From positions 1 through 64,000 of the forward strand of contig CM119263.1 in the NCBI GenBank assembly GCA_051294375.1: a stretch of 64,000 bases of DNA, read 5' to 3'. The position numbers and the translations under genes are program-made. This document shows positions 1,288 to 52,837 of the stretch, piece by piece; the first letter of the stretch is position 1, and each line of letters starts with the position of its first letter. The stretch comes from Paraspadella gotoi. Its lineage: Eukaryota; Animalia; Chaetognatha. Below the pieces are notes generated by a model. That model was given only the letters and a program-made list of their open reading frames with translations. It made no database searches and was not told the origin of the DNA.

Positions 1288-3447
1288 TCAATCTTGATCT
1301 GCTGCCGTTTGGTTTTTGTTGTCGGATTCAGTTCCCATGACAACGAACTTGAAATTTTTGTGAACGGTGGCGGCGACTTTGTGGCTTCCGAGTTGAGTCT
1401 CCTCTTCTTTCTTAGCGCTGTCTTCTCCTCCAACGACTAAGATGCTATTCTTAGCGAGAAACTTTTCCTCTTTAATCGTGTCTTTCTCGTCATTGTCGGA
1501 TATCTAAACGTTTTTATATTACTTGAATAATGAATATGTTGCTGGCGTTATATTCACACGCCTCACGTCCACCATCCGTCAGCCAAATCCATTGGCTCAG
1601 AGGGGGAACACACCATCCCAGGCGTAGTGTTCCATCCACAGTCCTAACAACTTCCCTCTGCGTTGGCAAAGCGAGACCGTCCTAGGGTAACCGCGCCAGT
1701 GACTGGAGGCGTCACTGAGGGTCGGAAGCCCCCAAAGCCAACAGTGAGATGCCCCATCCAATGGGCATCACAGGCAACCCGGCTGTTGCCAAACTATAAG
1801 CGGTGAGCCCTACTATCGACAGCACGCCAACTTCTCGAGGCCGTACGCTACGACAAAAACGGCCTATGCCCTGCGCGGACTGTCGGGTACGCTCACACAA
1901 GCAACGCCCTCTATGCCCCTGGGGTACGCCTACGACAAAACGCCTATGCCCCCACAACTCGCGCTCTCTCTCTCTTCTCCCACTATGGTAACATCTTGTC
2001 AGACACCTCTCAGCTTGAGGAACCTGAGTGATGTCTTAGCCCGGGCGATTCCTGTGGCGGTATATTCACACTGCCTCACGTCCACCATCCGTCAGCCAAA
2101 TCCATTGGCTCAGAGGGGGAACACACCATCCCAGGCGTAGTGTTCCATCCACAGTCCTAACAAACTTCCCTCTGCGTTGGCAAAGCGAGACCGTCCTAGG
2201 GTAACCGCGGCAGTGACTGGAGGCGTCACTGAGGGGGTCGGAAGCCCCCAAAGCCACAGTGAGATGCCCCATCCAATGGGCATCACAGGCAACCCGGCTG
2301 CTTGCCATTAATGTATTATGTTAAACAAATCGATAAATAAATTCTTGTGGCGATATATCAACAGTCTTACCTCTTCAGCCAATCCCAACGGGTCAGAGGA
2401 GGTATGCACCATCCCAACCGTGCGTTCCTTCCACAGTTAGAACACTTGTCCCTGCGCTGGCACGAGCGAGACCGACCTAAGGTAACCCGGCCAGTGGGAG
2501 GCGGTGCCACTGAGGGTCGGAAGCCCCTAACGCCAACAGCCGACATGCCCCACCCAGCTGTGAATCACAGCCAACCCGGCTCTTTCAATATTCTCATTTT
2601 AAAGAGACCGAGAAGAAAGGGGATAGCCCAACAAGGGGACCAGAAAGGTCTAAGATTTTTCCGTTAGTTGCACTGCTTTTCGGAACTACAGATGGTTTAA
2701 CTAACTGGTGGTTTAACCGGTCGATAATTCAGTTGCAAGGACCGTTTCTACTACGGTTTGAACCCGGGGCCCATTAGTACGGAGACACATACACACATAC
2801 ACTATTACCTACAGCCTTTCCCGACAATCATAGCCGACTCTTTTATATCCAATGAAAAGAGGAAAAACAGAATCGCCAGGATTTCCACAATTAGCCGTAG
2901 CCAGGAAAATTCACCTTTCTTACACCCTCGACACTTTGCTTCTGGGATTCTGCCAGATCGACGATCGTTTGTATGACATTGCTGTTGACTCGTTCGGCGC
3001 CGCCTATTTCCGTGGCGGAAGTCTTGGCGGGACTGACGACTTTCCCTTTGACGCTTCGACTGGGGATCGGCGGTTCTATGAGGCCGACGAGCGAATTGCC
3101 GGCACCGAAGAATTGCTCCTCAACGTCGTCGCCAAAGGGACCGAGAGGATCGTCCACGTCATTCTTGACGATCTTTTCTATGTCAGGCTCTAGGGTGACA
3201 GAGAGAGAGAGACCTTCTGGATAACATCCCACGGAATATTGCTCAGAAAAAAATATTATTATTGAAATAAGGTTACCCGAAAAATCAGCCGTCATTGCCC
3301 AACAGGATGATTTTCAGGAAACGTGGGGAACAAAATATATTAAATTTAAAATATCATTAAAGAGGAAAGATGAAACGAACCTGAAAGACTTTTAGAATAG
3401 ACAGCAGTCACGACGACGAAGAATAGTAATAATAATCCGCATGACAT
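1288..3447 (-). CDS. Small secreted acidic protein of unknown function; 3 exons (~3447-3381, ~3242-2915, 1503-1288)
   Basis: Exon 1 reads MSCGLLLLFFVVVTAVYSKSLS (signal-peptide-like) followed by a GT donor; exon 2 lies in ORF 2891-3295 and ends VRK|GTGAA; exon 3 starts after TTAG in phase 0 (ISDNDEKD...AADQD*). The exon 2 acceptor is approximate. Confidence 0.6.
1662..1742 (+). ncRNA. Twister ribozyme, type P5 permutation (family A, 5' LTR); predicted cleavage 1688/1689
   Basis: P5 GTTGGC/GCCAAC; P2 GCG/CGC; GA-CC-G; short P1 TCCTAGGG; TAA; GCC; P3 AGTGAC/GTCACT; P4 GGG/CCC enclosing TCGGAAGC; pseudoknot CC:GG. Confidence 0.85.
2176..2257 (+). ncRNA. Twister ribozyme type P5 (family A, 3' LTR); predicted cleavage 2202/2203
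   Basis: Same elements as 1662-1742 with small indels and a substitution (GGC for GCC). Confidence 0.8.
2346..2590 (+). mobile_element. Diverged solo LTR related to family A
   Basis: Starts TGTGGCG, ends ...CAATA, TSD TTCT (2342-2345 / 2591-2594); colinear with the family A LTRs. Confidence 0.8.
2456..2537 (+). ncRNA. Twister ribozyme type P5 in the diverged solo LTR (P2 imperfect)
   Basis: GCGA-GA-CC-G-ACCTAAGG-TAA-CCCG-GCC-AGTGG...CCACT-G-AGGG-TCGGAAGC-CCCT; P3 sequence changed while pairing is retained. Confidence 0.7.
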
Positions 3448-4928: not shown

Positions 4929-7900
4929 TCAGTACATGCCATAGGGTCCGCCAGAACCGCTGCCGGCCGAGTTGATGCTGGTCGGGTGAGAGGGGGCAGC
5001 ACCGCCCTGGAGCGGGCCTAAGGGATTGTTGGCGGCGGAGGTGGCGATGGCGGCGGTGGAGGCGGAGAGGGGGCCGCCGCCCGCGGCGGATTGGCTTGCC
5101 TTCCGCAAATTTTCTTTGGGTTTTAAATATTCGTCGTCGCCGAGGGCAAGTGCGTCGACGCGCTCTTCCTTGCGGTACTTGAGGCATTTGCGAATAAAGT
5201 TTTTCGCTTCGGGCGAGACGACTGGTTTGGCGGGGAACGTGACCTCCGTGGCCTTGAGGATGGTGTTCTCCTCCAAGATGGTCGCCTGCGACAGGTTGTG
5301 GCCGAAGGGCTTTTTACCGAACAAGCACTGGTAAAAAATGACGCCGACGCTCCACACGTCGACTTTGGAAGAAATCTTTGGGGGATTTTTGCCGACGACG
5401 AAGCACTCAGGCGGGAGATACCAGTACGTGCCGGCGCCCTGCGACGTTAAGTCCATACCCAGTTCCGGCGTGTAGTTGTCGTCGTCCATGATTTTTGAAA
5501 GACCAAAGTCGGTTATCTTAATCTCGCCGGCGTTGGAGGCTTTGCCCAGCAGAATGTTACCCGGCTTCAAGTCGTAATGAATGACGGGCGGTTTGATTTC
5601 GTTGAGATACTTTAGGGCCGCCACCGTTTGCATTATGATCGAACGGGCTTCCTTCTCGGGAAGAGACTTGTGTTGCTTTAAATGAAAGTCCAAGTCGTTT
5701 CCATCACAGTATTGTAACACAGTACAGAAAGAGTTGTTATCTATCTCGAAGACGTCATACAGCTTCACGATTCTGGCGTGGTCGAGCTGCTTGTGGATGT
5801 TGTACTCTCGTACGGCGTGTTTGATGTAGTTGGCCTTTTTTTCGTCCTTCCAGTCCTTGTTGAGTTGGTGGATCTTGCAGGCCGTGTACCTTTGTTCTTT
5901 GAGGTCGTAAGCCTTGTGAACCTCGCTGAATCCCCCTTTGCCGAGAAGGGTAAGCAACAAGTAGCGATCGTTTAGCGTCGTGTGATCCTTGAAGCGCGAA
6001 TTGTCCTCGTTCTGGATGCGTTTCAACTCGCGAATGTGCAGGTTGCGCTCGCGTTCGAGCTGCTCCAGCTGCAACTGCAGATCAGTGTCCTCTTTTCGCA
6101 AACACATTTGCCGTAATTTTAGAATTTCGTCTTGCTCGTGGTATTCGAGTAGCGTCATCTGGTTGGCTTCAGGTCCGTCTGTAGGGGGTGGCCCCATGTT
6201 ACCCTGAAAAAAATTAGGTCGAATCTGTTACGATAATTGATGTTTGTAAATTTTCTTTTTTATTACTACTTTCATCACGATTCCTCGATTAATCCGGGGT
6301 ATCAAAAAAAAATATTTTATCACGTTTAAAATTTAAAATCTGACCTTGTTTTTGGGCACCCTGTGGTTAATGGGTTTGTCGGCGGGTTTCCTCTTGACGA
6401 GGATTTTTCTGCATTTTTCTATTTCATCTTTTTCACGAGCGATTCGTTCCTGCTGCTTCTGAATCTCTTGGAATGCGTATCCGTCCGTCCAATTCTCTAC
6501 GAAAGTCGCTCCTTGTCGTTGGGTCACAAACTGGGGAACAATAGAGAAAGATGGTTCGAGGAAAAAATAATGAGACAACAGACAACAGACCCTAATGACA
6601 ACTACCGTGGCTGCCAAAAATGTTGGCCAATCGTGGTATTTGATAAATCGGAAATGATTTACCTGTCCGAGTCTGAGCCGATTTTCCATCGTCTTGTGCC
6701 TCGTCTCTTTCTTCTCGAAATTAGACTTTTCTATGAGGAGATCCCGAATCATGGCGATGCACTTGAAGAGTCCTTCCTTCTGCTTATCGATGAGTCTCGT
6801 TTGCGCGGTGATTTGCCGATTGAGCTCCTCGTTCTGCCGCGAGAGTTCGTCGATACGCTGATCCTTTTGGTCGAGGTCGCCGGCGTTGGCGGCGCTTACC
6901 ACCAACTGCTCCATGTTCTCCCGACCGATCTCAGTCTGCGCAGTCTTGGAGGAGAGGACGGGAGCGAGCGTCCCGCCGGGAAGTCTGGGCAACATGGGGT
7001 CGACCAGATGGAACGGGGGACCCATGTGATGAGGGATGGTGTGAGGGTGGTAGTTGCCTTGGGTACGAGTTTGGAGGAAGAATGAGCGTGAGGGGGCGGA
7101 TAAAAAAAAGCTTTTAATAAAAATACGTAAGGCTGAACAGTGAACACGGTTATTTTAGAGCTAATATAACCTTTCGATGACTTTTGCCTTAATCAAAGTC
7201 AAAGGTACAAATATGAATTTTATAATTGCACCTTAAAATTAAAGCTCTATATCTGGCCAGAATGACTTCACCGAAAAACTGCATAATCTACGTCCACAGT
7301 AGAATGTTTTGACATCAAAACAGACTGTGGAAAATTGGGTTTTTCGTGAACTACATGGCCCCTTTTTCTTTACGTGCGTACAATGTAAAAGAGATGTAGA
7401 CCTAGCCTATTTTGGACTTATCTCTAGCTCCAATAAAAATTTAGAGACAGCTCCAAATAATAGTTACTGTTGCTTCTAATGTTACATTTAAATGAATCCT
7501 AATTTTTTTAATGTTTATTAACTTACTCGGCTTTACTCGCTAATAAGTAAAAATAATTTATGAACACGTAACACTTTTTAGAAAATATTTCGTATTTAAA
7601 ACAAGCGAGTTTATAATAGGACAGCAGAAAATGGGTTTTTAGGTCAGAAATCTTTAGCTATAACAATTGTCCGAGCTAAGTGTCTTTCGTTATAAGCTTC
7701 ATGGTGTTCAAACATTTGTTTGAGTACAACAAAGTTTATTAATTATTTACTTTTTTATTGATATGATATTGGATCAAGTATTACCTAAAAAAGTTATCTT
7801 TTTGACTGAATCTAGTTTTAAAAAATATGTTAATAGTTACTTTAACATTTTTATAATTATTATTATTATTATGAATTTGGTACAACCAATATAAAAATTA

Positions 7901-10900
7901 TCCATTCATTTAATAAATAAGCTATCTTGCCCCTGACTTTAGACAGGCTTTGGTGGTTTAAGGCCTACATCACTCTTACAAGATAATAACATAGCAGGTT
8001 TCTGCAAGCTTTCAATCAAGACTCTCTCAGTCTCGTTTATTCACTCCCAGAGTACCTGGCTTCCCTATCAATGAAGTGGTATAATATTTCAAAGAAGGTC
8101 TAAATTGTATGAAAAGACCACCCCCTTAAGTATTAGATCGGGGAATAATATATTGCACTCAGTATTGTACCCAGCATTATTATAAAATTTTGTTATTTCC
8201 AAAATTATTTTTAGAGCAGAAGTGAAACTTTTTTCAGCCCACTCCAGCTCCAGCCGAGATGAAAACTCAGCTCCAGTTAGAAAATATATTCAGCTCCAGC
8301 TCTAGCTCTACATCATTTCAATGTACATATAAATGAATGACCATAGAACTTCAAGGCATTTCATAATACCAACAGAGATACGAAAATAAATGGCTCGGAC
8401 CGTATGTCATCGAAGTACAACTTTCTCAATAAATAAATCTGGCCCCAAAGCTAGAGCCAAACTTTGTCAATGGGGTGGGTAAGAAATTTGATTTGGGAAC
8501 CTTCCCAAATAAAACTTCATACAATTCTGAGAAAACTTTCAATGGACCAAAATTTTCTACAATGGCTAGAAGCACTAGTAATTAGTTTTTTAATATTTCT
8601 TTATAGGACACGATGCAAGTTAACGTGGCGAAACCTACCCATGCAAATTTTTAGCATATTTTTTTATCTGTGAGCCAAACTTAAAGCTTTATATTAATAA
8701 TACTGCACGCGTTTGGTTTTACCAAACCTTTACTTTTACCATAACCCTCACTTATCAACAAAAAAGGAAAATTAATAAAAAGGCAGTTAGAAGCAGACTC
8801 GTGGTGGCAAAAATTTATTTTATAATTTTGAATTTAGAAAATATAAATTTTAGATCAATCAATTTGGAAACTAAATGACGAATTTTTTCCCCCACTTTTT
8901 CAAGATTTGACTTTCTTTTTTTACTGTATTCCTCCTGGGTTGAGGCAAAGAATAAGGAAGACATTTTGAGTTAATTCATGTTATTGTAATCATATATGTA
9001 TATTTTGAAACAGTTCGGACTACAACTTCTATACCATTATGGTGGACTAAAATCCACCAACCGTTCATCAGCGGCCATTGGTGCCGGAGGCAAGTCATTC
9101 GCCTCCCAACCCAAAGGTCCGGGGTTCTAGCCCGGTGGTCGTCTGGCAGTTAAGAGGGACGGGGCGCTTAACCCGCCTGTAACATGGTGTTACAGCCTGA
9201 TCCGAAGCTCAGGGACTGCTTATATTGAACGGTTCTGTCATTAACACTTATCAATAATTACTGTCTCTTCACCATTTTTATTTCTTAAAAAATTAGGAAA
9301 AAAACATTTTAGAAAAACAAATTTTGAGCATTGAGAATTTTAGATCTGAAAATAGAGAACAAATTTTGAATTTTTTAAAAAATCAGCTTTTAACTATTTT
9401 ATTTTGCTATAATCTAAATTTTTTTTTTTGATATCTTTTATTTTAGAGTAGAAATAAAATTCTCAATGAGCATAGGTCAGTTCATTTTTTTTTTAATTTT
9501 AAAAAAAGATTTAATATTTTTTTTATTTAAATTAATATTTATACTTTTATGAATAAAACAAAGCTCATATGAATGTATAAAGATATAGGAGATGAATTGG
9601 AATGGTAAAAGTATAAAAAGTAAGAAGCTTGGAAAAAGCGTAAGTTAAGAATGAAAGATCAAAAAGGAAAACTAGAAATAGATTGATAGAGAGAAAGAAA
9701 AAAAATAAAGAGGGATATTGAATAAGAAAAAGAAAGAGTCATTGTTGTTATTATGTTTATACTTATTATTGTTGTTATTATTATTATATATTTTTATTTT
9801 TTAAAATGAAAAAATAATTAGTTAAAATTTTTTTTTATTTAAATTAATTTTTACCAGAATGATTTTGTCCAAACTTAAGATTAAGCTCAATCAACCTCTT
9901 TTCTGGCCACACACTAAATTTCAGATCAATCCATCAATTTACTAAAGTGTAATGATAGGTTAAAGTTACTGATGGATGGACAAATAAATAAATGTATAGA
10001 AAAAAGGAAGGATTCAATTTTTTTGGATAATTTTTTATAAATCAGTATTCTGAAGAGACAGTAATTATTGTAATGTTAGTGACAGAACCGTTCAATATAA
10101 GCAGTCCCTGAGCTTCGGATCAGGCTGTAACACCGTGTTACAGGCAGGTTAAGCGCCCCGTCCCTCTTAACTGCCAGACGACCACCAGGCTAGAACCCCG
10201 GACCTTTGGGTTGGGAGGCGAATGACTTGCCTCCGGCACCAATGGCCGCTGATGAACGGTTGGTGGATTTTAGTCCACCATAATTCTAAGATAAACCAAG
10301 TAATTTACTAACAAAATATAAGGGGTGGACAGATAAATGGATAAAATGGTTTATAGACTATTATAAAAAAAAAAATATATTAATTTTTTTTATTATCCTA
10401 TATTTTGTTATATCCTAACTACCAAATATTTTTTTGCATTGATTTTTTTTCATATATGAAGAAAACCATGATGTTTCATATAACCTATTCAGAGATAACA
10501 ATTTCAATCACCGATTTTTTTTTTTATGGCTGCATACACTACGCCACGCAAACTTGCATCGTGTCATAGATAGTAAATGTCAAAACTTTTTTTTAAAATT
10601 TTGCATTTTTAAAAGCAGATTCATATATTGTCTACACAAAGTATAATTCTTTGTTTAATATTTTAATGATAAGTAGGTCAAATTTAAGAAAAACCAGAAA
10701 AAATCATCCGATGATTTTAGCAGTTTTTGCTAATTTTCAGTAATAAAACATCAAAAGTTTAAAAAGTTGTAATTGTTTGCTTAACTTTTTGAGTTCTACC
10801 AGAATCAATTTAAAAAACTTAAAATATCCAAAAAAATTTTTTTACATTATATAATGATTTTAATTGGCGAATTACTCATGGTTCGGTACATTTTTAAAAA

Positions 10901-22500: not shown

Positions 22501-25500
22501 ATTATAATTTATTATTTTTTAAAGATAACTTATTTTAATTATATGGTAATAAAAATATTTGATATCTTTAAATGCTTTGAGGCGACTTACCACAGCTTTA
22601 ACTTAATCAATTAATTTAATGATGTTTTTTAAAACTGAAAACCCCAAAAACTTCTATGATCCAAAGCAATTAATTTTAATTTTTAATCATAAAATGTAAT
22701 TGTTACAAGATAAAATTATTTAAATAATATTCGGATATTACTATAAAAAATATATTTACTTTATACTATAAATATAATTTTATTTAAAAAATAATATCTG
22801 CATATAAATTTTGTATGAATAAGAGTAATAGTTTGGTTTAACTCTATATACAAATATTTTGTTATTGAATAAAATAATTTTTTTTTAATATACAATAATT
22901 TAAAAAAAAATAATTAGTTGGTTTTTACTTTTTTCATTAAATAATTGTTTAACAAAGAAGTTTTGTTTTTCTTACTAAATCTAAAAACAAGGAAAAAAAA
23001 GTTATGATTTATAAAATTAAAAATAACTACCTCTTATAATCCGATTCATATATTTAAATTAATTCATAAATTCATTTAGATACTATTTTACTATATAATA
23101 ATATTGTTAATTAATTTACTTGATTAGCAAATTATTACAAGTTTAAAGTATAAACATTGTGTTGAACTTTTTTATTACATTTTTAGATTAAAAAAAAATT
23201 TATATTAACAAAAAATTTAATGAATTTGTTAGTAATTTTATTTTTATCGTTGTTAACAAATTCATAAAATTTTTTTGTAATCTTTGTAATCAACAGATCA
23301 AACTATGAATACGTTAACAAACATTTTTTTAATAAAAAAAAGGTTTTTTTTAAGTTTAAATTAATAATTTTAATTAAAATATAAATCATTTCTATCCTAG
23401 CATCCCACGTAATTCCCTCCACTAGCCCTAGCCTCCGCTTTGCATTTAAGGCCAAGCATGAACCTCGAACCTATCATCGCACATAAAACTTTTCCCATCT
23501 GTAAGTTGGGTATAACTACAACAACCTTGTTGATCGTAATGCTAACTTTTACTTATTCATCCTGAATTACAACTACCTCAAATGTTAAAACTAAACACTA
23601 ACCCTTAACCTAATTTTAGTAAAATTGCCATAACTAGAACATTAGTTTCAGTTCATTAACAAAATTATTATTTTCTATGCGATATCGCATAAAATCTGGA
23701 TAGTGGAGATCATTTGAATAATTATATCTTTTTTGTAACAATTTCATTATATGATTAAAAAATTTTATGAATTGCTTTGTTTTAAAGAAGAATCTTTAAA
23801 AAAAAAAAATTTTTAGAAATAGGTCACAATAGTTTTTAATGCTTTTAATTATAAAAAATTAATTAACTATATTAATTAACTTAAAAAACCATTTAAAATT
23901 ATCAAATGTTTTTCACGGTAGGGCAGAGAGGATGTGAAAGAAACAAAAAAAGTGCCATCTCTGAAACCTATAAAATCTTAAAGTATACCCATGAGACACT
24001 TAATGTGGTAGGTCAGTAAAATTCGATAAAGGCAGGTTTTTTTTAAATGCTCATTAAAGTTTTTGAAAATTTTTTATAAAATTTTTAAAATAGTTTAGTC
24101 TAAATGCTTACAATTTTAATGTCTATACATCTATCATTATCTACAGAGCATAAGCTTTAATTTGAGACCTCTCCCAACTTTTTACGATTTTTTGTTATTG
24201 AATTATAAGTAAAAATCATAATTTAAAAAAAAAAATTAATAATCAATCAGTTCTTTCAAACGGATTATTTCTTAAAAATAAAAGTACAAATAGGTTCTCA
24301 AAATGCAGTTCTACTTATTAAGCCCTAAAAACAAATTTTTAAAAAAATTTATATAAATTTATTATGAAAAATAAATAATATAGATAATTAATTTTATTTT
24401 TTTAAGAAAAATATGTAATATTTAATTAAAACTTAATCTCAAATAAAATAACAGATAAATATTAGTTGAGCACTTTAATTCAAAATCATATCCAGCTTTA
24501 AAAAGTAATTATATAATTTATTACTTATCAAAAAAAAATTTTATTCTTAAAATTATATTATAATAATAACTCACTCAATATTTGATATATATTATTAATA
24601 GACAAATGTATAAAAATATTAACAAACATAATGCTTTAACTTTTAATTCTTAATTAGAGTATATATTAATATTTTTCAAAATATTTTTTTCATTTTTAAA
24701 ATTTTTTATATTAAAATTATTATTAATTAAAAAAAAACTTATTTTGAAGCCTAATAAGTAGATGGTGATAATAAAAGCTTTTTGAGGGAAAAAATTAATC
24801 ATAGACAGAGAGAGAGAGAGAGAAAGAAGCCAAATCGTTTTCAACAGCAGAGGCACCCAGAAAAAAAGAAAGAAATCAAAAGGCAGCAACAGAAGCAGCA
24901 CGAGAAAAGAGAAAAAAAAAAGAGCCCCTGCAGAGCCAGCTGCAGAGAAAGAAATCAAAAGGCCGTAGCAGAAGCAGCAGGAAAAAAGAGAAAAAGAATA
25001 AGCCACTGCAGGGCCAGCTGCAGACTCGTTTTTTTTCCTTTCTCTATGAATCAGTGACTAGGGAAAAGAGAGAGGGAGAGAGACATGTAATTAAGAGAGA
25101 AAAGAGAGAGAGAAAGAAATATAAAAATAAAAGAGAGAAAATTTGTTTTTGATAAAACGTAAACAAAACATATTTAATATCTGTCCAGACTCAATTTTAA
25201 GAGGAAAGGTCATTCAGCATAACAATACGTAATCATTGATGTATTAGAGCTAATACATCGAGAAATTCATTATAATCATCAAATTTGAGAAAATAAAATA
25301 AAATTATAAACAAAGAAAAATTCTATTTTGCGATAGTACGGAAGAAAATTAAAGTTACAGTTTCTGAAAAATACAAAATGATAACATGCACGAATGCGAT
25401 GCCTAATTTTACGAGTTCAATCCTAATTCAATTTTTTTTTAATAAAAACGCAGAGAGAGAGAAAAGAAAGAAATCAAAAGGCAGCAGCAGAAGCAGCAGG

Positions 25501-28500: not shown

Positions 28501-31500
28501 GCTTCTTAAAAAATCATTATCAAAAATACCTGAGAAATATTTTGTTGATTCGGCGCCTGCGGACTGTCCCGCTTCCCCGCTTCCCCGCCTCCTTTTCCTT
28601 TTCCTGTGGCTTCGTGAGAGGCGCTGCGGTGTCGATCCGCGGGTCGACGAAAGGCGAGCAGCGTTGAGAAAATCTCGCCCACGGGTTTATTTCCCAAAAG
28701 CGACTCCTGCGATTGAGTCTTGGGCGGTTCCGACTTCGATCCTCGAGGACTCGTGTCGTCCTTCTGGAAGAGGGCGCCGAGTGGGCGAGAGCCCGAAAAC
28801 AGGGCGCCGGTCGGTCGATTCTTGCCCAAAAGGAAGGAAGTGGTGGGTCGCCCGGAGCCGCTCGTCGACGTGGACGCCTCGGATCCAGAAGGGTCGCGGC
28901 GCTGTGCCTCGCTTTTGGGGGCGCAGGCAGCATCGGCGTCTAGAGGTTTTCCATTAGGAGATTCCGAGTAGAAGCTCGGCAGCATTGGAGGACGAGAGTC
29001 ACCGGACGAAGAGGATGGTGGTTGGTTGGGTGGGGAAGGGCCGGGAATGCCGGAGGTAGGGTAGGGCGAGGTGGGCTGAGGTTGATGAGGGGATGGAAGG
29101 TAGTTGGGTTGAGCTTGAAGAGGAGATTGGAGAGGTTGGATGGGAGACAGATGCGGTTGAGATGGAGACGGCTGAGGTTGTATCGGAGATTGCTGAGGAT
29201 GATTCAACGGGGAATGTTGCGGGTGCATGGGCGAATGTTGTGGTTGCATAGGGGAATGCTGAGGGTGCATTGGCGAATGTTGAGGATGCATAGGAGAATG
29301 CTGGGGATGCATAGGAGAATGTTGGGGAGGCATAGGAGAATGTTGAGGATGCATAGGAGATTGGTGCGATTGCATAGGTGATTTGTGAGAATGGCCAGAG
29401 TCGGTCTGCGGCGAGCGAGAGGCCGCCATTTTGTAATGGGCGGTCTCCTGCTTTTCAGAGGGAAAAGGAAGTGTTTCGACGACGGAGATTCCGCGTTCTA
29501 AGTCTGTCGTTCGAATCTTGATGGGCGGGACGCGACCCTCCATCGCCGGGCGGTCGTCGTTCTCCCTCTTTAAATGCTGAATTACTTGGTAGATCTTTTC
29601 GGGTTGCGGACTGCGATGATCCCTCACTTCTGCTTTGAATGTCAACTCGTTGGTCAGCTTGTTCTTCAGCATGTGGTGCGGCGATGGGTGAGCGTCGATG
29701 TCGGTCTTGGCGCCCGGTAGCGGCGGAGTGCAAAGCTGCGGAGAGTGGGAGACTTTACGGCCATCGGCGCCGCCGACGCCCTTGTCCGAAGACGGGGCCT
29801 TGATCACCTGTGCGTCTCTCGGTGATGGAGAAGGAACGGGCGAAATGAACTGATAGGCGGCGCTGACCGGAGGAGTCGTCAGTTGTCGAGGGGAACCAGG
29901 CGCGCCACCGAGGGCGTTGTTACGGACAATGAGATCCAAGAGGTCGGACCCGTCCGAAGTCTCTTTGATCGACTCGAAGTCGCTCTGAATCTCGCTGGAC
30001 AACGCGGGTGACTCAGAAGTCGGCGGCGTCGACGAGGTCGAACCCTGGAATCACAAATGTTCTTCACTTGTAAGTTTTAATAATAATTGACAAAGTTGCA
30101 CATTCAAAACTAGTATGAAATGTTTTCGTTTAGACGCATAAATCATTAAAAATTACTAAATCTCTATCAAGAATAATGAAGAAATTAATATAATGTGGTG
30201 AATCCTAAATTCGCCTCCCGTATAGCTTGGTGAAACTCAGCTCGTCCCATTGGCTTGGACAGCTAAGTACTCGTTCACCAACCGTGAGTTCCGGGTTCAA
30301 TCCCCTCACGGTCACGCTGGTTAAAGTGTGATGGTGTCGGCATAAACACGCCAGTGACATGGGGTGGTCACTGCAGGTCCAAAGCCAGCTGGCAGGAGAT
30401 GCCTCACACCCCAGGCATCGCACATGTCCCTCCGTTGCCATAAGTGGTTAGCCCTACTATCGAACACGCAACCGCTGCGTACCGTCGTTCACGTCGTCGC
30501 TTAAGGGTATGCATCCCACGCCTATGCCCTACTTCTCGCTCGCTCTCTATGGCAATGAGTCTGTCTACTCTCAAGACAGTCACTCTGGGCTTGGTCACCC
30601 CAGTGTGCTGTCTTGGGGGGGGCATGTGTGGTGAATCTTAAATTCGCCTCCCGTATAGCTTGGTTAAACTCAGCTCGTCCCATTGGCTTGGACAGCTAAG
30701 TACTCGTTCACCAACAGTAGGGCGTTGAAAAATAACGAAATATAACAGATCAAATGAGGTACATAGCTATTTTAGTGTAATAAAGTCTAGAATTCGATGA
30801 TATAACCATTTTTTTGTATAGTCTCATCTTCTTTGTCGGAAATGGCGATTTTTGCAGCATATAAGGTGCTATTAAAATGGAGCAAACATTGTAGAGTATA
30901 AGAAACTAAAATTATTAAGATTTTATAAAGCTATATTTAACTTATATAATATAAAAATAAAGCCCCATATAAATATTTTGGTAAGTTTATTTACAAATTT
31001 TATATTTTATTAATAGTTTGTTAGCTATATTTATTAATAAATAATAATAAAAAATAAGCTAAAGTGAAAAAATAAAAAAATTCAAATTTTAAAACCGGAT
31101 TTGAATTCCTTACAAAAAGTTGATATAAGAAAGTATAATCCATTTTAAAAAATTCATTCATTAAGTAGGTTAAAAATATTAAAAACTATTTTTTATTTAA
31201 TTTTTCAGTTTTTGGCTTAAAATTATAGTTTTTCTGATTTGACCAACTTAATGACATAATTTTTGATATAAAAATTATATTTTCTTATATCAACTTTTTA
31301 CAAAGAATCGCAAATCCATGAAAAAAATTTTGAAATTATTATTTTTTTAACTTTAACCTAATTTTTACTCATAATTATTATAAATATAGATAATTAAATT
31401 TTATAAAAAACATAAATTTAGAAATAAACTTAACAAAATATTTTATAAGTCTTTATTTTTATATTTCAAAGCTCATATAAATTTTATAAAATTTTATAAT

Positions 31501-34500
31501 TTATTTATCATAAATTATATGGTTTTGCTTTTTTAAACATTTTATATACATTAAAAACCGTCATTTCCGACAAGAAAGATAAAATTATACAAAAACATGG
31601 TCATCACCATCGAATTCTACAGACTACATTACACTAAATAGCTATGTACCTCACTTGATTGTTATATTTTATTTATTTTTCAACCTCTAACCACGTGAGT
31701 TCCGGGTTCAAATCCCCTCACGGTCACGCTGGTTTAAAGTGTGATGGTGTCGGCATAAACACGCCAGGGACATGCGGTGGTCACTGCAGGTCCAAAGCCT
31801 GAGCGCCAGCTGTCGGGAGATGCCTCACACCCCAGGCATCGCACATGTCCCTCCGTTGCCATAATAATTCCAATCTATTTAAAAGAGAATTGAGAGATAA
31901 AAGATAAAGATAAGTAGGAACCGGAATAATCAGTGGAATGGAGCTCTCGAGGCCCCAAATTTTGATTAATGAAATATAAGACACAAAATATTTTACTCTT
32001 ATTCTGAGGGAACCAAACAGATCATAATACAGGGACTCCTGTCAGGGAGTCCAGCTTTATCGGTATCTTAAGCTCAAGAGCGATTTTAAGATGGAAAAAA
32101 ATTATTGGGAAACTGGAAGCCTAAATTTGACCCAAAAATTGTCCGTAATTTTTTCTATCACAATTATTCTTTTTTAATTTTTAATAAAATTTAAAAAAAT
32201 AATATAGGAAACAACCAGACTTGTCGCCTCAGTTCTCCTGACTGTGATCCCTAAACTTTTATTAGCCAAACTTCGTTCAATGGGGTGGGTCAGAAGTTTG
32301 TTTGGGAACCTCATACATTTCTGAGAAACTTTCAATGGAGCAAAATTTTCTAAATGGCAAGAAGCATTAGTAATTAATTTTTTAATATTTATTTATAGAT
32401 AGGAAATGTCAAAAATTTTTTTTTGAATTTTTTATTTTTAAAGCAGATTCAAATAGCTTATGAAAAGTTATCTACACAAAGTATAATTCTTTTTTCAATA
32501 TTTTGGGTTTAAATTGAAAAAACCTTAAAAAATCATCATCATCATCATCATCCGATGATTTTAGCAGTTTTTACTAATTTTAGTAATAAAACATCAAAAT
32601 TTTTAAAAGATTGTAATTATATTTTTTGCTTAACTTTTTAAGCTCTATCAGAATCAATTAAAAAAACTTAAAATATCCAAAAAAATTTTTGACATTATAT
32701 AGCAATAAAATAATATTAATTAGCGAATTACTCATGGTTCGGAACATTTTTGTAAAAAAATATTAACACAATAATTAATACCATAATGGATTAGTTTAAT
32801 GCTGTTCCCATTAAAAATTGAATTTGGTCGCTACCTCTACTTTTATGAAAGGGAGTTACTTAAGCCAGAAGTCAAAAGTGTCTCCTGCATAATAAATAGT
32901 TATTAACCATCCATTCTCCCGAATGCAGCCATAGTGGTAGGACTGGAGGCTTTCCTACCGGGTTCGCAAAAGCTTGCTCAAAGCTTCTGTGGGTGCTTGC
33001 AAAGGTTTTTCAAGGCAGTCCAAATGTGAAAAATAAATGATATGAGTCTATTAGAGATGACAAAGTTTTTTTTATATAAATAATTCGTGCAAACAAAAAC
33101 TTTGTCAATCTCTAAACATTTCGAACAACGAAAAGAAAGGATTAACACAATAAGATATGAGTCAAAGGAAATCAGAGAGGGAGAGAGTGAGAGAGAGAGG
33201 AAGAGAGTGAGGGCAAAAATTCAAAAAGAGGAAAAAAGAAAAGTTAGACAAAAAAAAAGTTTTTCAGATGTTCTCAGCGTAAAAAATAGGAAAAAAGTCT
33301 AAATTCATAACTTTTTGACTCGTTTTATTCATTTTTCACATTTTTTCATATTAATGGTTTGAATTTTATAATTAAAGGCAGCATATAAATATTCTCATCT
33401 CTCAATCTTTCAATTCCTCCAACCTAATAATTATTAAGTCTCTGCGGTTTTGAAATACGGATGAATCTAACGAGAAGAAAACACTTATCAAAATATAAAA
33501 TAATAATAAATTGTTAAAAACGAACCTGAGACGTTGAGACTTTTATTCCTCCTGCCGCCGTTGCCGAAGCGGCGTGGCTCCCTCTCAATGAGCTTAATGG
33601 CGGCGCGGGCGGCGTCTCTATTCGAGAGGACACCGCGTTGGGTGGCTTCATGGCTTGCGTCGGCGGAGAAGGACTGTAGTGCGGGGAGAGCTGCATAGAA
33701 GGATGGCTCGGAAGCCGCGGGGGCATGTGCGTCGTCGGCTTTGTCGACGGAATAGCCGGAGAGCTTTCTGGACGGCCGGCGATGTGCATTGAGACCGCAT
33801 CGGTCGACGGCGTGACTCCCTGAAGCGTGCGGCTCATATGTTGCAGATTCGCCAGAGCGGGGTTAGACCCCATGCTCTTGCTATTGGGCGGAAGATGATA
33901 CCCCGCCGCGATAATGTCCTGAGGTTGTATGGGAGTATGTCCGGATGTCTCCGCAGTGTGGTTCGTCCCGGACCGAGATTTAAAGTTGTTTGATTGATCG
34001 ACGCTCGTCGCCGTCTCGGGGGACGTCAACGAAGATTCTGGGGGCCTCAGATGTTTTCTCGACTCCGCCTGCTGATGTTGCAAATGATGTTGCTGAAGGT
34101 AATGTAATTGCTGTTGCCGGAAGGCGGCGTGGGAGAGATCTTGGGACGCGGAGCGTGGAATGGGATCCCTGGAGGCAGCGGCGGCGGCGGCCGACTGGGA
34201 TTCGTGGCGGGAAGAAGAGGACGAAACTGTGGAGGGAGCGGAGGCGGAGGACGCCGGCGACGACAGATATTGACGGATGAGATTCGAGGATGAGGAAGAT
34301 GGCGTCGAACGCGACGCGGAACCTCCGTGAATTCGGACCAGATCCGGAACGGGCAACATGTCTTTACCAGGCGGGTAGCCTTGGTAGCCTTCCACGTTGG
34401 ATGTCGAAGGCTGAAAAGTAATACGATGGTTTAAAATTGATCAAAGAATCATCTCCCTCTCTCCCTCCCCGCCTCTACAGATTATAGACGAATTTCAGTT

Positions 34501-36507: not shown

Positions 36508-37439
36508 AATGATAATCTATCGGTCTTCCAATATCGCGGTAAAGAAAAGTCTATTTTTCATCTTGGTGCAGAATGAGTTTTTTCTCCAGGTACAATAAAC
36601 GCTATAAAACCGAAACATTATTTAGTATTTAGTATTTAAAGCAATTAGTTCCAACAAAATTTCTTTTTCCATAAAAACCTGAGAAATTAACATTTTGAGT
36701 TTACTTTTAAAAACAAAAAGTAACGGCCACAAAAAATCGGTATTTAATCCCAGCAAAACGAGGAAAATAGTTGAATAAACAAATATAAACAAATAATCTT
36801 GGAATTTTCTTAATTAAAATTAGCTGCGGTCGTAGCGCCAGATATGGCGACTACGAAACATCTCCCCCAGTGCATACGTTAACATCACAGAGCTCGTAAG
36901 GATGTGATACGGAGATGCCACATCCGTGTTTCCAGAATTCACAGAACGAGGCTCACACCCGCTTGTTTTTTTCACTTTTCTCTTCATGCAAGAAAAACTC
37001 ATCTTCGGGAGCCTGAATTAAGCGACCTCCATATTTTTATCTTTTGTTTTTTTATCGTCGCAATCGCTAAGCGTTTGCGACGATATTGTAACGCTTTTGC
37101 GCATAAGTGGCGTCGGCGTCATCGTTGTTGTCGTCGGCGTTCCAAATTATAGATCGCTTTTTTTATGATTAAATTTGGGTGTGTGAAGCTGAAAATTTAT
37201 ATACAGCTTCTCATAATCGATGTGCTTAAAATTGAGTCTGGACAGTTATTAAATTTGTTTTGTTTACGTTTTATCAAAAACATAAAAACCAAAAAAAATT
37301 GACCGGAATAAAACTCACAAGAGCGATCAAATGATAGAGTACTATTTTGGAGGTGTTTGAACCTAAGAATTTATAGGAACTTTTAAGATAAAATCGATTT
37401 TAACTAATATTTTTGATAATTTTAGTACAGATTTTTAAA

Positions 37440-40167: not shown

Positions 40168-40403
40168 TATGGTGGACTAAAATCCACCAACCGTTCAACA
40201 GCGGCCATTGGTGGCGGAGGCAAGTCATTCGCCTCCCAACCCAAAGGTCCGGGATTCTAGCCCGGTGGTCGCCTAGCAGTTAAGAGGGACGGGGCGCTTA
40301 ACCCGCCTGTAACACAGTGTTACAGCCTGATCCGAAGCTCAGGGACTGCTTATATTGAACGGTTCTGTCACTAACACATATCAATTATCACTGCCTCTTA
40401 TCA
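40168..40403 (-). mobile_element. Family C solo-LTR-like element
   Basis: High identity to 9038-9271; TSD unclear. Confidence 0.8.
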
Positions 40404-40840: not shown

Positions 40841-41353
40841 TTAAGCAAATTCCGTATAAAAAATCTGGTTATCGCCGCCATTGTGTTCCCATAAGTGCAA
40901 AAGCACACCCATTTCTGGTGAGCAATCTGGTACATCGATAGCTCTCCCGCCTTCCATCGCCGACACGATGAACCACGAGTTGCTGCCATCGCCAGCTGGC
41001 TTGAACCTCCACTGTTGATTGACGCCGCCGTGCAGATCATATTTGCAGATAGAGGCTCCGTTTTCGTTCGCTCCCCATTCCACGTCCAAGACTTTTCCGT
41101 CCTTTACACTAACGATGTGGAAAATATCATCCTCCACATGAACCAAGCGGAACATTTGATGAGGCTCCTCGTTTCTTTCCCACTGGCATAGCTGAGTTTC
41201 TGGTCCACCGTCAATCACATGCTCCGAACATTTGTTACGTAGAAACACCACTTTAGGAGAGTAAATATTGCAAAAGGTTGAATTTATTGGGTAAAATGAT
41301 CCCTCTAAACCTATTACATTAGCTTGAAGTTGAACTTTTATCTTTTTTACCAT
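40841..41353 (-). CDS. Ricin B-type (beta-trefoil) lectin domain protein; 5' end uncertain
   Basis: GKVLDVEWGANENGASICKYDLHGGVNQQWRF, GRAIDVPD, LWEHNGGDNQIF (QxW-type repeats). Confidence 0.85.
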   Translation of the reverse strand: MVKKIKVQLQANVIGLEGSFYPINSTFCNIYSPKVVFLRNKCSEHVIDGGPETQLCQWERNEEPHQMFRLVHVEDDIFHIVSVKDGKVLDVEWGANENGASICKYDLHGGVNQQWRFKPAGDGSNSWFIVSAMEGGRAIDVPDCSPEMGVLLHLWEHNGGDNQIFYTEFA

Positions 41354-41629
41354 ACAATCATTCAAGTAGGTAGACGATGCAATAAAAGTTCAATTTCGTT
41401 AGATTCAAATTTGAACTAAGGTACAAATTTTGTACACTTTAATATTGTTTATTATTTATGCAAAGACGTTTTGATGTAAAGAATGCAAAAATATAACAGT
41501 AAAGTTAGTTACTTATAGATAATCACCAAAGATATAGTTATTCACCAAAGATATAATTTCATATTGTTCTGCTATAAACTAAAAAAGCTTCCTTTTATAA
41601 AATTTACTCTCCTTGATCATGCAATCTGT

Positions 41630-42391: not shown

Positions 42392-44933
42392 TTACTCGTT
42401 TCCTTCTACGAGCTTTATAAGCAAGATTCCGAGATGGTCCGAGTCTCCGAGATCGTCTTCAATCCTTTTTCTCAATGTTGTTTCGAATTTTCTTTCGTAT
42501 TCTTCTCTTATTTTAGCTAAATCGATCTGAATGAGTAATCAATAAATATATTGAAATTATTCGTTAAATTTTCTTTAGTAACGTGTTATGGATTTACATA
42601 AACGATGTCCGAGTTAAAATTTTTAGAATTTGTAAGGGACTTTATCTTTAGTTTTGGCTTAAGATACAGAATTATTGATAATTAGGAGCGTTACCTCGCA
42701 ACGTCGAACAATGGTGTACCACAGACGATATTCGCTTGTCCCAATTCCACACATACAATCTTCTAAAAGCTCAGCGAAGTAGCTGACAGGATCCTTAGCG
42801 TATTTCACTATAAATTTTGCAAAACTATGTATGACTTGCTAATTTTTAGTTGCGCCGCGAGTACTCGCGAAGCAACTCTATAAGAACACTTGGGTTTCCT
42901 TCGGTCGGTCCGAATGTCTGTCTGTCCATCAATCTATCTTACTTACATTAAAAAAAAACTCATAACTCGGGCAATACCATATCAATTAAGCTCCTTGAAC
43001 TAGCCGGTTCTTGTTTTATTTGAAATTCCATTTGATTGCGCCCGACTTATTTTTACCAACGGTTAGTGAAGGGGGGGGGGGAAAGGGGGCTTTTTTCTTT
43101 TTCCCCCGGCTAGGGGGACCGGGAACCTCTTGCAAAATAAGACACTTTGGGGGGGGCCCCCGGACTGTCCTTGTCCCCTTCCCCATTTTCTTCCAAGATA
43201 CAATCGTACATTTCCACCATTTTCCTCAGTTGTTTCCACGATCGCGTCATGAAACACGGACATGAATGCTGTTTCGTCAGTTCCAATTTTTCCTTCGCCT
43301 TAAAACATCGAGTAAACACTCTTAATGCTATTAATAAAAAGTCCAAGAGCACAAATACTTTCATTCACGTTCTACAGTGATTAATAATAGTGTCATGAAG
43401 CAAACTCACAATGACAACAGACAACAGTCACAAAAACGTTGACAATCACCTGCTTCGTAAATCTTTTTGGCGTCTTCTCGGGCCATATCTTCGTCCACCT
43501 TCTTGCTCTCGCTCCTTCCGCCGGATAATATGGAAATCATGAATCTCTCGAAGTAGCCGCCCAAATCAGAGCTAATAGCTTCTTGAAGTTCTTCCTCGAA
43601 GACTGAAAAAAAAAGAAGCAATGGCATTCCATATGTGATATGTCATTCAATGGGAAGACAAGTTCTTTTCTCACGTTCTTTGTATTTCTCCTTCAGCTTT
43701 TCCACTTCTTTCGGACGAATCGTCCCGAAGACATCGACTAGTACTTCTTCGGATGTGCCTGCACCTTTGAGGGCGTCGCGAACGAGTTGCGCCAAAAATT
43801 CCGTTCTTTCCTGAAAAAATTTAATGAAAATCATAGAAAAAAATTAAATATAGAAGAATCAATTATTTCAAAATATACCAATTGTATAGTGTAAAACTAT
43901 ACTATAACTGTTAACTGTGTAATGGATAAATAAATTGCATACAACCGTAAGCTAATAGCTACTCACTCTAACGAGACCAATGGCGCAGTCCTCAAAATGA
44001 CCATGGGCTTCCTTTCGAATGTCCTCAATCAAATCCTACTTAAATCAAAAAGTTGATAAAGCATATCCGGATCTAGGCATAACATATCTGTAACATAACA
44101 TACTCGACCGTAGAGAGCGGTGTACTGAGTGGAGATTTCTTGTATCTGTTTGTTTGAGTGGGAACCTAGCACGGCGCCGATTCTGTCTTCGTCCGTGCCC
44201 ATGCCTTCCATCGCCCCACGGAGTTCCTCCGCAGCTGCTTGTGATTCGAAGTCTCGAGCTTTGCCGATTGAAGCCTTAAATAAGAATTAGAAAAGTGTGG
44301 CGAATCCTAAATTTGCCTCCCGTATAGCTTGGTGAAACTTAGCTCGTCCAATTGACTTGGACAGCTAAGTACTCGTTCACCAACCGTGAGTTCCGTTTCA
44401 ATCCCCTCACGGTTATGCTGGTTCAAGTGTGATGGTGTCGGCATAAACACGCCAGTGACATGGGGTGCTCACTGCAGGTCCAAAGCCCTGAGCGCCAGCT
44501 GTCGGGAGGTGCCTCACACCCCAGGCATCACACATGTTCCCCGTTGCCATAATAGTTTTAATTTAATTATGGCGACGGCCTCAGTTTAAAAATTAAACAA
44601 TCTTTAAAAATAGAAGGAAAATATTGATTTAGGCCCGAAAATATTTACTCATTAGGAGCCTTTTAAAACAATATGGTGATGAGACAGTAATTATTGTTGT
44701 GAGCTTTGGATCAGGCTGTAACAGCGTACTACAGGCGGGTTAAGCGCCCCGTCCGTCTTTACTGCTAGACGACCACTGGGTTAGAACCCGAGACCTTTGT
44801 GTTGGGAGGCGAATGCATTGTCTGCAGCACCAAAGGCCGCTGATGAACGGTTGGTTGATTTTAGTCACCATAAAGAAATATTTTAGACTCTCATTTTAAA
44901 ATTTCAGCAAAAAATTGTCAAAAAACTTACCAT
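42392..44933 (-). CDS. Annexin (paralog 1), about 7 exons
   Basis: ATG|GTAAG first exon; AMEGMGTDE, ALKGAGTSE, SDLGGYFE, CVGIGTSEYRL, IEDDLGDSDHLG; the third repeat is not clearly found. Confidence 0.85.
44296..44551 (+). mobile_element. Family B solo LTR in annexin intron 1
   Basis: TGTGGCG...TTGCCATA; near-TSD AAAG/ATAG. Confidence 0.88.
44417..44499 (+). ncRNA. Best-preserved twister type P5 ribozyme (family B); predicted cleavage 44444/44445
   Basis: P5 GCTGG/CCAGC, P2 GTGT/ACAC, GA, pseudoknot TG:CA, P1 TG-TCGG-CA, TAA, GCC, P3 AGTGA/TCACT, P4 CAGG/CCTG around TCCAAAGC. Confidence 0.9.
44677..44872 (+). mobile_element. Diverged, internally deleted family C element
   Basis: TGATGAGACAG...TTAGTCACCATA, colinear with 10051-10282. 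Confidence 0.75.
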
Positions 44934-46264: not shown

Positions 46265-46348
<84 letters not shown>

Positions 46349-49724: not shown

Positions 49725-49958
49725 TGAAGAGACAGTGATTATTGTTATGTTTTAGTGACAGAACCATTCATTATAAGCAGTCCCTGAGCTTCGGATCAGG
49801 CTGTAACACCATGTTACAGGCGGGTTAAGCGCCCCGTCCCTCTTAACTGCTAGGCGGCCACCAGGCTAGAACCCCGGACCTTTGGGTTGGGAGGCGAATG
49901 ACTTGCCTCCGGCACCAATGGCCGCTGATGAACGGTTGGTGGATTTTAGTCCACCATA
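49725..49958 (+). mobile_element. Family C solo-LTR-like element
   Basis: Near-TSD ACAG/ATAG; empty site (AAG-ATAG-CTT) in the related repeat near 7920. Confidence 0.85.

Positions 49959-52372: not shown

Positions 52373-52403
<31 letters not shown>

Positions 52404-52800: not shown

Positions 52801-52837
<37 letters not shown>

What the first reader, a model, noticed from the sequence alone, without database searches (positions are those of the whole stretch)
1540..2310. Miniature LTR retroelement with a twister ribozyme in each LTR: candidate animal 'twister LTR retrozyme'
Seen: two ~255-bp LTRs, a ~260-bp non-coding interior, a 4-bp TSD, and in each LTR a complete type-P5 twister fold (TAA cleavage strand, GCC, P4 loop TCNNAAGC, GA-NN pseudoknot partner). 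Known: LTR retrozymes are described in plants with hammerhead ribozymes, where tandem self-cleavage releases an RNA that circularises and is mobilised by Ty3/gypsy machinery. Inference: this is the same strategy using a twister in an animal. Cleavage at 1688/1689 and 2202/2203 would release a 514-nt monomer that could circularise. I am not aware of this combination being described, but I cannot search the literature.
Basis: partly seen in the sequence, partly recalled or inferred. Interest (0 to 1): 0.95.

Follow-up and report, generated by a model that had tools for sequence, protein, structure and literature searches.

The report
Twister-ribozyme LTR mini-retrotransposons in an animal
This is a small non-coding jumping gene of an invertebrate, present at this site in some individuals and absent in another, whose end repeats carry a predicted self-cutting "twister" RNA that would likely release a circular RNA copy, a strategy so far described for this kind of element only in plants and with a different ribozyme.

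Summary
1540-2310 is an LTR-interior-LTR mini-retrotransposon with a 4-bp target duplication. Contigs from four runs fix both LTR ends at the same bases across many loci, and one individual carries the empty site. The interior starts with a tRNA-Trp-complementary primer site.

The 5' LTR holds a complete type-P5 twister fold. The 3' LTR, as assembled, has one core change. The window holds two more twister-bearing repeat families: a second full element and several solo LTRs. Their stems and T1 pseudoknot differ in sequence but still pair; 1,184 shuffled windows gave 1 strict hit. Rfam misses all of them. The host is an invertebrate animal.

Shown: mobile LTR element, conserved twister fold. Inferred: cleavage, a circle of about 0.5 kb, Ty3/gypsy mobilisation and possibly Pol III transcription. 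The predicted monomer is not strongly folded (z -1.9).

Seven paper searches found no animal LTR retrozyme and no twister-bearing LTR element. Verdict: a new variant of the LTR retrozyme kind.

The parts
1536..1539 (.). Left target-site duplication, ATGT
   Evidence: contig 8 of run X5 joins 1539 to 2316 without the element
1540..1798 (+). 5' LTR of family A (TG...TA termini)
   Evidence: contigs end at 1791 with loose flanks that begin TA (table 7)
1662..1742 (+). Type-P5 twister fold 1: P5 1662-67/1737-42, P2 1671-73/1692-94 (plus C1691.A1674), G1675-A1676, T1 1677-79/1723-25, 2-bp P1 hairpin 1680-87, predicted cut U1688/A1689, GCC 1695-97, P3 1698-1703/1711-16, P4 with loop 1722-29
   Evidence: Rfam consensus lines
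1801..1836 (+). Extended primer-binding site complementary to the 3' half of tRNA-Trp; starts CGG instead of TGG in family A
   Evidence: 10 of the first 13 positions match as assembled (hand count)
1799..2052 (+). Non-coding interior with three short subrepeats; shares several short blocks with the family C interior; no clear polypurine tract in this copy
2053..2310 (+). 3' LTR of family A
   Evidence: contigs with loose left flanks start at 2053 (table 7)
2176..2257 (+). Twister fold 2, predicted cut U2202/A2203; G2210 and a missing P5 base as assembled
   Evidence: fails the descriptor
2311..2314 (.). Right target-site duplication, ATGT
2346..2590 (+). Diverged solo LTR of family A (78% identity) with its own TTCT duplication; twister with broken P2 and compensatory changes in P3
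1504..2914 (-). Host intron (GT..AG on the minus strand) that holds the element antisense
   Evidence: splice joint 1503-2915 in one contig of run X9, depth 492 (table 5)
30194..31863 (+). Second full element (family C): ATAA duplication, TG...TA termini, tRNA-Trp primer site 30445-30473, G8 polypurine tract 30615-30622; 3' LTR split by a ~975-bp insertion; both twisters damaged as assembled
44296..44551 (+). Family C solo LTR with an intact twister fold (predicted cut after U44444); duplication 3 of 4 bases; antisense between annexin exons
9038..9271 (+). Family B solo repeat (TA...CA termini, CCAT duplication) with a P5 twister fold, predicted cut after U9169
10051..10282 (-). Family B solo repeat, GAAT duplication, intact twister fold; empty paralogous site near 39480
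40168..40401 (+). Family B solo repeat with twister fold; no clear duplication
49725..49958 (-). Family B solo repeat with twister fold; duplication 3 of 4 bases; empty paralogous site near 7925
44673..44873 (-). Degenerate family B copy (T1 and P2 broken, P5 deleted), sense to the annexin gene

Best explanation
This is a non-coding miniature LTR retrotransposon (TRIM) that is polymorphic between individuals and whose LTR carries a conserved type-P5 twister fold, predicted to cut the transcript once in each LTR and release a unit of about 0.5 kb that is likely ligated into a circle and likely copied back into the genome by a Ty3/gypsy-type partner. Steps and my odds: (1) insertion as LTR-interior-LTR with a 4-bp duplication: shown; that an LTR integrase does it is inferred (0.95). 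(2) Twister fold under selection: shown by covariation (0.93). (3) Self-cleavage of young copies: inferred (0.85). (4) Priming by tRNA-Trp: inferred from complementarity (0.85). (5) Circle as template: inferred (0.6). Two cuts at the same LTR position leave no terminal repeat, so minus-strand DNA could only continue if the 5'-OH and cyclic-phosphate ends are joined. (6) Transcription by RNA polymerase III from an internal promoter upstream of the cut: inferred (0.45); otherwise host read-through or a Pol II promoter.
For: Fixed ends (table 7): loose flanks behind 1791 in 117/96/66/25 contigs and before 2053 in 88/74/63/23 contigs of runs X1/X5/X6/X9; flank consensus fits a TA end plus an ATAT-like target. 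Empty allele: one X5 contig at single-copy depth (21.6) runs 1100-1539 then 2316-2538, while X1 and X6 hold the filled right junction (table 8). Exact 4-bp duplications at 5 of 8 assessable insertions in the window, 3 of 4 bases at 2 of 8. tRNA-Trp complement printed in 10.1101/400127 and PMC5737633: family C matches 25 of the first 32 positions, including TGG and a 12-nt exact run (hand count); G8 tract before its 3' LTR. Twister: T1 is CGG/CCG, CCA/TGG and CCG/CGG in families A, C and B, and P2, P3, P4 and P5 also change on both sides. The descriptor without the P5 rule finds 2 of 2 Rfam-confirmed phage P5 twisters and 0 of 10 other loci. P1 is dispensable for cleavage (PMC6154101 passage). 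Cut-to-LTR-end distance is about 102-110 nt in all three families. No TTT on the twister strand in the A, C and B units (mononucleotide shuffle P 0.038, 0.003, 0.032); B-box-like motif in C and B.
Against: No cleavage or circle was observed. Family A has C.A at the first P2 pair, where 49 of 51 distinct natural P1 twisters pair. LTR2 fails the descriptor as assembled, and both twisters of the family C full element are damaged. The nested twister fold lies 12-15 kcal/mol above the minimum-energy fold, pseudoknots not counted. The predicted 514-nt circle is 57% paired, z -1.9, against over 70% reported for animal retrozyme RNAs (PMC4918200 passage); window errors may lower this. Family A's primer site begins CGG and it has no clear polypurine tract. 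Termini are TG...TA and TA...CA, not TG...CA. The T-run signal is post hoc and weaker under dinucleotide shuffling (P 0.15, 0.10, 0.016); family A has no match to my B-box pattern. No autonomous partner was found in the window (0 RT or integrase hits in 73 ORFs). The empty allele rests on one contig, and its 1-base offset is explained only by an inferred window error.
Confidence: 0.6

Rival explanations
1. An active twister on a linear RNA: only one of the two sites cuts in the molecules that get packaged, which leaves a terminal repeat of about 105 nt, so reverse transcription follows the ordinary LTR route with no circle. The ribozyme would stand in for a transcription start or a terminator.
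For: Weakly folded monomer; no AATAAA on the twister strand of any LTR tested; suboptimal P2 in families A and B could slow cleavage; twisters form 5' ends of linear Perere-3 RNA (PMC8501958 passages).
Against: Both LTRs give the ribozyme the same local sequence, so both should cut alike; plant elements of the same anatomy make circles (PMC4918200, PMC7761336 passages).
Confidence: 0.25
2. An ordinary TRIM whose twister is an inactive relic carried along in the LTR.
For: C.A in P2 of family A, damaged twisters in several copies, no Rfam gathering hit.
Against: Three families with little sequence likeness keep the catalytic bases and change both sides of T1, P2, P3, P4 and P5; family A is recent enough to be polymorphic.
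Confidence: 0.1
3. A Penelope-type pseudo-LTR or tandem non-LTR retrozyme (a 1.5-unit tandem of a 514-bp monomer) with a twister instead of a hammerhead.
For: Animal retrozymes described so far are non-LTR and Penelope-derived (bioRxiv 10.64898/2026.07.22.740005, part 1); an unchecked scan note reports a twister in a Naiad tail in another genome (e1-7769516).
Against: Both ends are fixed, solo LTRs have their own 4-bp duplications, and there is a tRNA primer site and, in family C, a polypurine tract; animal non-LTR retrozymes lack LTR, PBS and PPT.
Confidence: 0.04
4. An assembly artefact that duplicated one repeat.
For: The window has indel errors inside the element (table 4).
Against: Contigs run from LTR into interior and from interior into LTR in several runs, and an independent full element of family C has the same anatomy. 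No listed contig spans the whole element.
Confidence: 0.01

Closest known systems
Plant LTR retrozymes (Cervera, Urbina, de la Pena 2016, PMC4918200; review PMC7761336; passages read)
   Same: Non-coding LTR-interior-LTR, 4-bp duplication, ribozyme inside the LTR, tRNA primer site, many solo LTRs.
   Different: Animal host; type-P5 twister instead of type III hammerhead; tRNA-Trp instead of tRNA-Met; smaller (LTR ~250 bp, unit ~0.5 kb); non-TG...CA ends; circle and cleavage not shown; monomer not strongly folded.
Animal TRIMs, Helenus and Ajax (TRIMp3; Kojima 2024, PMC10886601; parts 1-3 of 6 and supplement passages read)
   Same: Under 1 kb, two LTRs, primer site (tRNA-Trp used by some wasp Helenus and Gypsy-32_NVi), 4-bp duplication in animal Helenus, Gypsy partner inferred, possible Pol III boxes in the LTR.
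   Different: The word ribozyme occurs only in that paper's reference list. Here no tRNA or 5S-derived segment was detected, only box-like motifs.
Twister T-variants at the 5' end of Perere-3 (RTE clade) in Schistosoma mansoni (Liu et al. 2021, PMC8501958; passages read)
   Same: Twister used by an animal retroelement, with a weak P1.
   Different: That element is an autonomous non-LTR element with one ribozyme at its 5' end; here the fold is a P5 permutation repeated in both LTRs.
Animal non-LTR retrozymes and Penelope pLTR hammerheads (PMC7761336 passages; bioRxiv 10.64898/2026.07.22.740005, part 1 of 5)
   Same: Animal, non-coding, two ribozymes one unit apart.
   Different: Those are tandem repeats with type I hammerheads and no LTR, PBS or PPT.
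Type-P5 twister ribozyme (Rfam RF02684)
   Same: Strand order P2'-GA-T1'-P1-UAA-P2-GC-P4 with loop UCNNAAGC.
   Different: Adds a 5-7 bp P3 and shrinks P1 to 0-2 bp; T1 sequences differ from the CCC/GGG consensus; scores below the Rfam threshold.

Membership tests
TRIM (non-autonomous miniature LTR retrotransposon) | Two LTRs, under 1 kb, non-coding | tested here: met
   771 bp
TRIM (non-autonomous miniature LTR retrotransposon) | Fixed termini and 4-6 bp target duplication | tested here: met
   tables 7 and 8; 5 of 8 exact duplications
TRIM (non-autonomous miniature LTR retrotransposon) | TG...CA termini | tested here: not met
   TG...TA (A, C) and TA...CA (B); both types are known variants among lotus Copia elements (PMC9804982 passages)
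TRIM (non-autonomous miniature LTR retrotransposon) | Primer-binding site | tested here: met
   tRNA-Trp complement: 25 of 32 positions in family C; family A starts CGG, 10 of the first 13
TRIM (non-autonomous miniature LTR retrotransposon) | Polypurine tract | tested here: inconclusive
   G8 in family C; only a short G run in family A
LTR retrozyme | Hammerhead ribozyme (type III) in the LTR | tested here: not met
   No hammerhead hit; a twister fold sits there instead, so it works like a retrozyme but is not a member by the published definition
LTR retrozyme | Self-cleavage at both LTRs | not testable with these tools
   needs an in vitro assay or raw RNA reads
LTR retrozyme | Abundant circular monomer RNA | not testable with these tools
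   only contigs were available
LTR retrozyme | Highly self-paired monomer | tested here: not met
   57% paired, z -1.9, on an error-bearing copy
LTR retrozyme | Ty3/gypsy partner sharing terminal boxes | not testable with these tools
   no genome held; none among the window ORFs scanned
Twister ribozyme, type P5 | Conserved UAA, GA, GC and loop UCNNAAGC with T1 pseudoknot in P5 strand order | tested here: met
   LTR1, C solo and B 10k pass the strict descriptor; three more B copies pass with 2 of 3 P2 pairs
Twister ribozyme, type P5 | Covariation of the stems | tested here: met
   three families with different, complementary T1, P2, P4, P5
Twister ribozyme, type P5 | Rfam gathering score | tested here: not met
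   the model lacks P3
Twister ribozyme, type P5 | Catalytic activity | not testable with these tools
   bench assay needed
Helenus / TRIMp3 | tRNA- or 5S-derived Pol III promoter in the LTR | tested here: inconclusive
   no tRNA by ARAGORN or Rfam; B-box-like motif in C and B, A-box-like motif in A, T-run depletion
Penelope pLTR / non-LTR retrozyme | Tandem units without LTR ends, PBS or PPT | tested here: not met

The most novel reading that the evidence does not exclude
[quoted passage not shown] This would be the first animal LTR retrozyme and an independent invention of the plant retrozyme life cycle with an unrelated ribozyme.
Probability: 0.35. Interest if true: 0.85.

Novelty: new variant of a known kind. 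Interest (0 to 1): 0.72.

Why it matters
The papers read place LTR retrozymes mainly in plants with hammerheads and describe animal retrozymes as non-LTR. A twister version in an animal would show that the LTR-plus-ribozyme strategy arose more than once and does not depend on the ribozyme class. It gives a biological role to type-P5 twisters, about 1% of annotated twisters (PMC6154101 passage), and shows a P3-bearing, short-P1 form that Rfam misses, so such elements may be overlooked in other animal genomes. Young, polymorphic copies in three families make it testable whether a circular RNA is the real template of an LTR element. Hundreds of intronic self-cutting inserts would also shape host transcripts.

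Tried and rejected
Rfam at gathering score: 0 hits in 64 kb. Permissive scans gave only weak twister matches, including a Twister-P5 match at 49672-49714 (21.5 bits, E 4) that I did not follow up.
No whole genome is held, so no copy count and no partner search.
Pattern search for this twister variant: 0 hits in viral contigs; 8 hits in metagenome contigs, none with similarity to the element or passing the descriptor, read as chance.
Two attempts to fetch a eukaryotic tRNA-Trp gene from viral contigs: 4 and 12 loci, no tRNA in any; the primer test was then made against published sequences.
No RNA holder listed. Run X9 behaves as RNA by one splice joint and has contigs over LTR and interior, but contig depth cannot show level, strand or ends, and intron read-through or DNA carry-over could explain it. 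'Goes back' joints occur in DNA runs too and reflect the two LTRs, not circles.
Family-wide variation inside the ribozyme and the presence of the element in organisms B and C remain open.
The strict descriptor missed both Rfam-confirmed phage P5 twisters because of its P5 rule; without that rule it finds them, at 4 strict-P2 chance hits in 927 shuffles.
Repeat pair 24946-25725 (519 bp apart) was checked as a possible further element: no twister loop and no LTR termini seen.
Scan notes held nothing by place or sequence.
The original twister paper could not be opened.

Full report
1. Observation. The window shows two direct repeats, 1540-1798 and 2053-2310, 96.9% identical over 254 aligned bases, around a 254-bp interior, with ATGT on both sides. 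A third, 78% identical copy follows at 2346-2590 with its own TTCT duplication. The predicted cut sites lie 514 nt apart.

2. It is a mobile LTR element. Nine public runs from 3 studies hold the stretch; I laid 4 of them. Contigs leave the repeat at the same bases: behind 1791 in 117, 96, 66 and 25 contigs and before 2053 in 88, 74, 63 and 23 contigs of X1, X5, X6 and X9. The loose flanks differ from each other. Their consensus begins TA then ATAT on the right and ends ATAT on the left in three of the four runs, which gives TG...TA termini and an ATAT-like 4-bp target. One X5 contig at single-copy depth runs from 1539 straight to 2316, so that individual lacks the whole unit; X1 and X6 hold the filled right junction. 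The empty allele is one base shorter than the window predicts. The X1 junction contig has 3 gaps and no mismatch against the window, so I infer window insertion errors. X1 may be the sample the window came from. At least 117 distinct right junctions exist in X1. One interior contig in X6 has depth 4,375 against 17-26 for single-copy flanks, which suggests a few hundred full elements; the tool warns that depth is no copy number, so this is rough. A splice joint in X9 (1503 to 2915, CT..AC) puts the element antisense in an intron of a minus-strand gene.

3. Host. A neighbouring kinase exon matches human TLK2. Among the 120 best homologues listed, every named one is from an animal, nearly all invertebrates at about 70-83% identity, with one entry flagged as contamination. 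The host is an invertebrate; I did not identify it further.

4. The twister. Rfam finds nothing at gathering score and only weak twister-P1 matches. The Rfam P5 consensus has no P3 stem and a long P1, unlike this fold. I wrote a base-pair descriptor from the Rfam consensus lines. In the window it finds LTR1 and, unexpectedly, copies in two other repeat families: strict hits at 1675, 44431 and 10162 (minus), and hits with 2 of 3 P2 pairs at 9158, 40288 and 49838 (minus). 1,184 shuffled windows gave 1 strict hit. Without the P5 rule it finds 2 of 2 Rfam-confirmed phage P5 twisters and 0 of 10 other loci, with 4 strict-P2 and 10 relaxed chance hits in 927 shuffles. Across families A, C and B the T1 pseudoknot reads CGG/CCG, CCA/TGG and CCG/CGG; P2 reads CGC/GCG, ACAC/GTGT and CCY/AGG; P4 reads AGGG/CCCT (A solo), CAGG/CCTG and CTGA/TCAG; P3 and P5 also change on both sides. 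This covariation is the main evidence that the fold is selected.

5. Results against a working ribozyme. Family A has C.A at the first P2 pair, where 49 of 51 distinct phage P1 twisters pair (96 loci fetched, 51 distinct parsed). P1 is 0-2 bp, though P1 is reported to be dispensable (PMC6154101). LTR2 has G2210 as assembled and passes no descriptor setting; contigs carry both bases there, so this locus's 3' twister may be impaired. The A solo, both LTRs of the full C element and one B copy are damaged.

6. Sister elements. Family C has a full element at 30194-31863 with ATAA duplication, the same GTTGCCATA end, a 184-bp interior and a G8 tract before the 3' LTR, which a ~975-bp insertion splits; there is also a solo LTR at 44296-44551. 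Family B has four whole solo copies, one degenerate copy and one fragment, with TA...CA ends. No full B element is in the window, so its LTR status rests on termini, duplications and alignment to A and C. Of 8 assessable insertions, 5 have exact 4-bp duplications, 2 have 3 of 4 bases and 1 has none; the degenerate B copy and the fragment were left out. For 3 of 3 B copies checked, a paralogous repeat elsewhere in the window carries the 4-mer once, cleanly for two of them. TGTA and TACA ends are known among lotus Copia elements (PMC9804982).

7. Primer site. Two bases after the 5' LTR, A and C share a block complementary to the 3' half of tRNA-Trp as printed in 10.1101/400127 and PMC5737633 and in the Helenus supplement. 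By hand count family C matches 25 of the first 32 positions (4 mismatches, 3 gaps), with TGG and a 12-nt exact run. Family A starts CGG and matches 10 of the first 13. The comparison is to human and bee tRNA; the host's own tRNA was not available. Animal Helenus with such sites and 4-bp duplications are ascribed to Gypsy elements (PMC10886601).

8. Mechanism. Inferred: a transcript crossing the element is cut in each LTR about 105 nt from its 3' end. That leaves a unit with 5'-OH and cyclic-phosphate ends and no terminal repeat. Minus-strand DNA primed by tRNA-Trp would run out after about 105 nt unless the ends are joined, so a circle is the simplest template, as proposed for plant retrozymes. 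The partner's integrase would then insert LTR-interior-LTR, and recombination would leave solo LTRs. The circle is not shown, and the monomer folds only slightly better than shuffles (z -1.9, 57% paired, 60 shuffles). A linear route with one cut stays open. For transcription, no LTR tested has AATAAA or TTTT on the twister strand, families C and B have a B-box-like motif, and the A, C and B units have no TTT at all. This hints at Pol III, but the test was post hoc and weaker under dinucleotide shuffling.

9. Novelty. Seven full-text searches listed no paper on a twister in an LTR element or on an animal LTR retrozyme. A 2026 preprint still assigns LTR retrozymes mainly to plants with type III hammerheads. 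What I saw: passages of PMC4918200, PMC7761336, PMC6765202, PMC8501958, PMC11722881, PMC5680766, PMC6154101, PMC9804982 and 10.1101/2022.07.19.500677; parts 1-3 of 6 and supplement passages of PMC10886601; part 1 of 5 of 10.64898/2026.07.22.740005; one passage each of 10.1101/400127 and PMC5737633; all others as search listings only. PMC7761336 mentions unpublished work on insect type III hammerhead elements and on RTE twisters. Subscription journals, Repbase, Dfam, bioRxiv supplements and the original twister paper with its sequence lists were not seen and could hold such elements, with or without the ribozyme recognised.

10. Verdict. A real, recently mobile TRIM with a selected type-P5 twister fold, one of three such families in 64 kb. 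It works like an LTR retrozyme by anatomy but fails the published definition (hammerhead), and cleavage and circles await the bench. New variant of a known kind; interest 0.72.

Noticed in passing
window 30716-31691: A ~975-bp insertion with imperfect terminal inverted repeats and a possible degenerate 8-bp duplication splits the 3' LTR of the family C element; it looks like a hAT-type non-autonomous DNA transposon (class label recalled).
   Followed up: partly
window 44032-47629 (minus strand): Annexin gene. Between its exons the intact family C twister is antisense, while the one sense-oriented family B copy has a broken twister; a single case that fits selection against cutting the host pre-mRNA.
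   Followed up: partly
window 49672-49714 (+): Weak Rfam Twister-P5 match (21.5 bits, E 4) just outside the family B copy; not examined.
   Followed up: no
window 1791/2053 in runs X5, X6, X9: Contigs join an LTR end to an LTR start (table 5): tandem or nested LTRs, or interior-deleted elements.
   Followed up: no
window 1743-1770 and the same place in family C: A second hairpin follows the twister in families A and C, just before the LTR end; possible packaging or folding signal.
   Followed up: no
window 1840-1950: Three ~40-bp subrepeats in the family A interior; one related block occurs in the family C interior.
   Followed up: partly
window 4929-7154 (minus strand): Tousled-like kinase gene with the whole kinase domain in one open frame.
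   Followed up: partly
window 40841-41389 and 51364-53191 (minus strand): A ricin-B-type lectin domain ORF and two ion-channel (Ion_trans_2) exons.
   Followed up: no
window 24864-27096, 37044-37282; 54138-55178; 41636-42283: Other repeats: an unclassified dispersed family with a local duplication, a ~52-bp tandem array and a ~127-bp tandem array.
   Followed up: partly
L003 and L004, 148-213: Phage type-P5 twisters with a 3-bp P2, the same shortening as in family B.
   Followed up: partly
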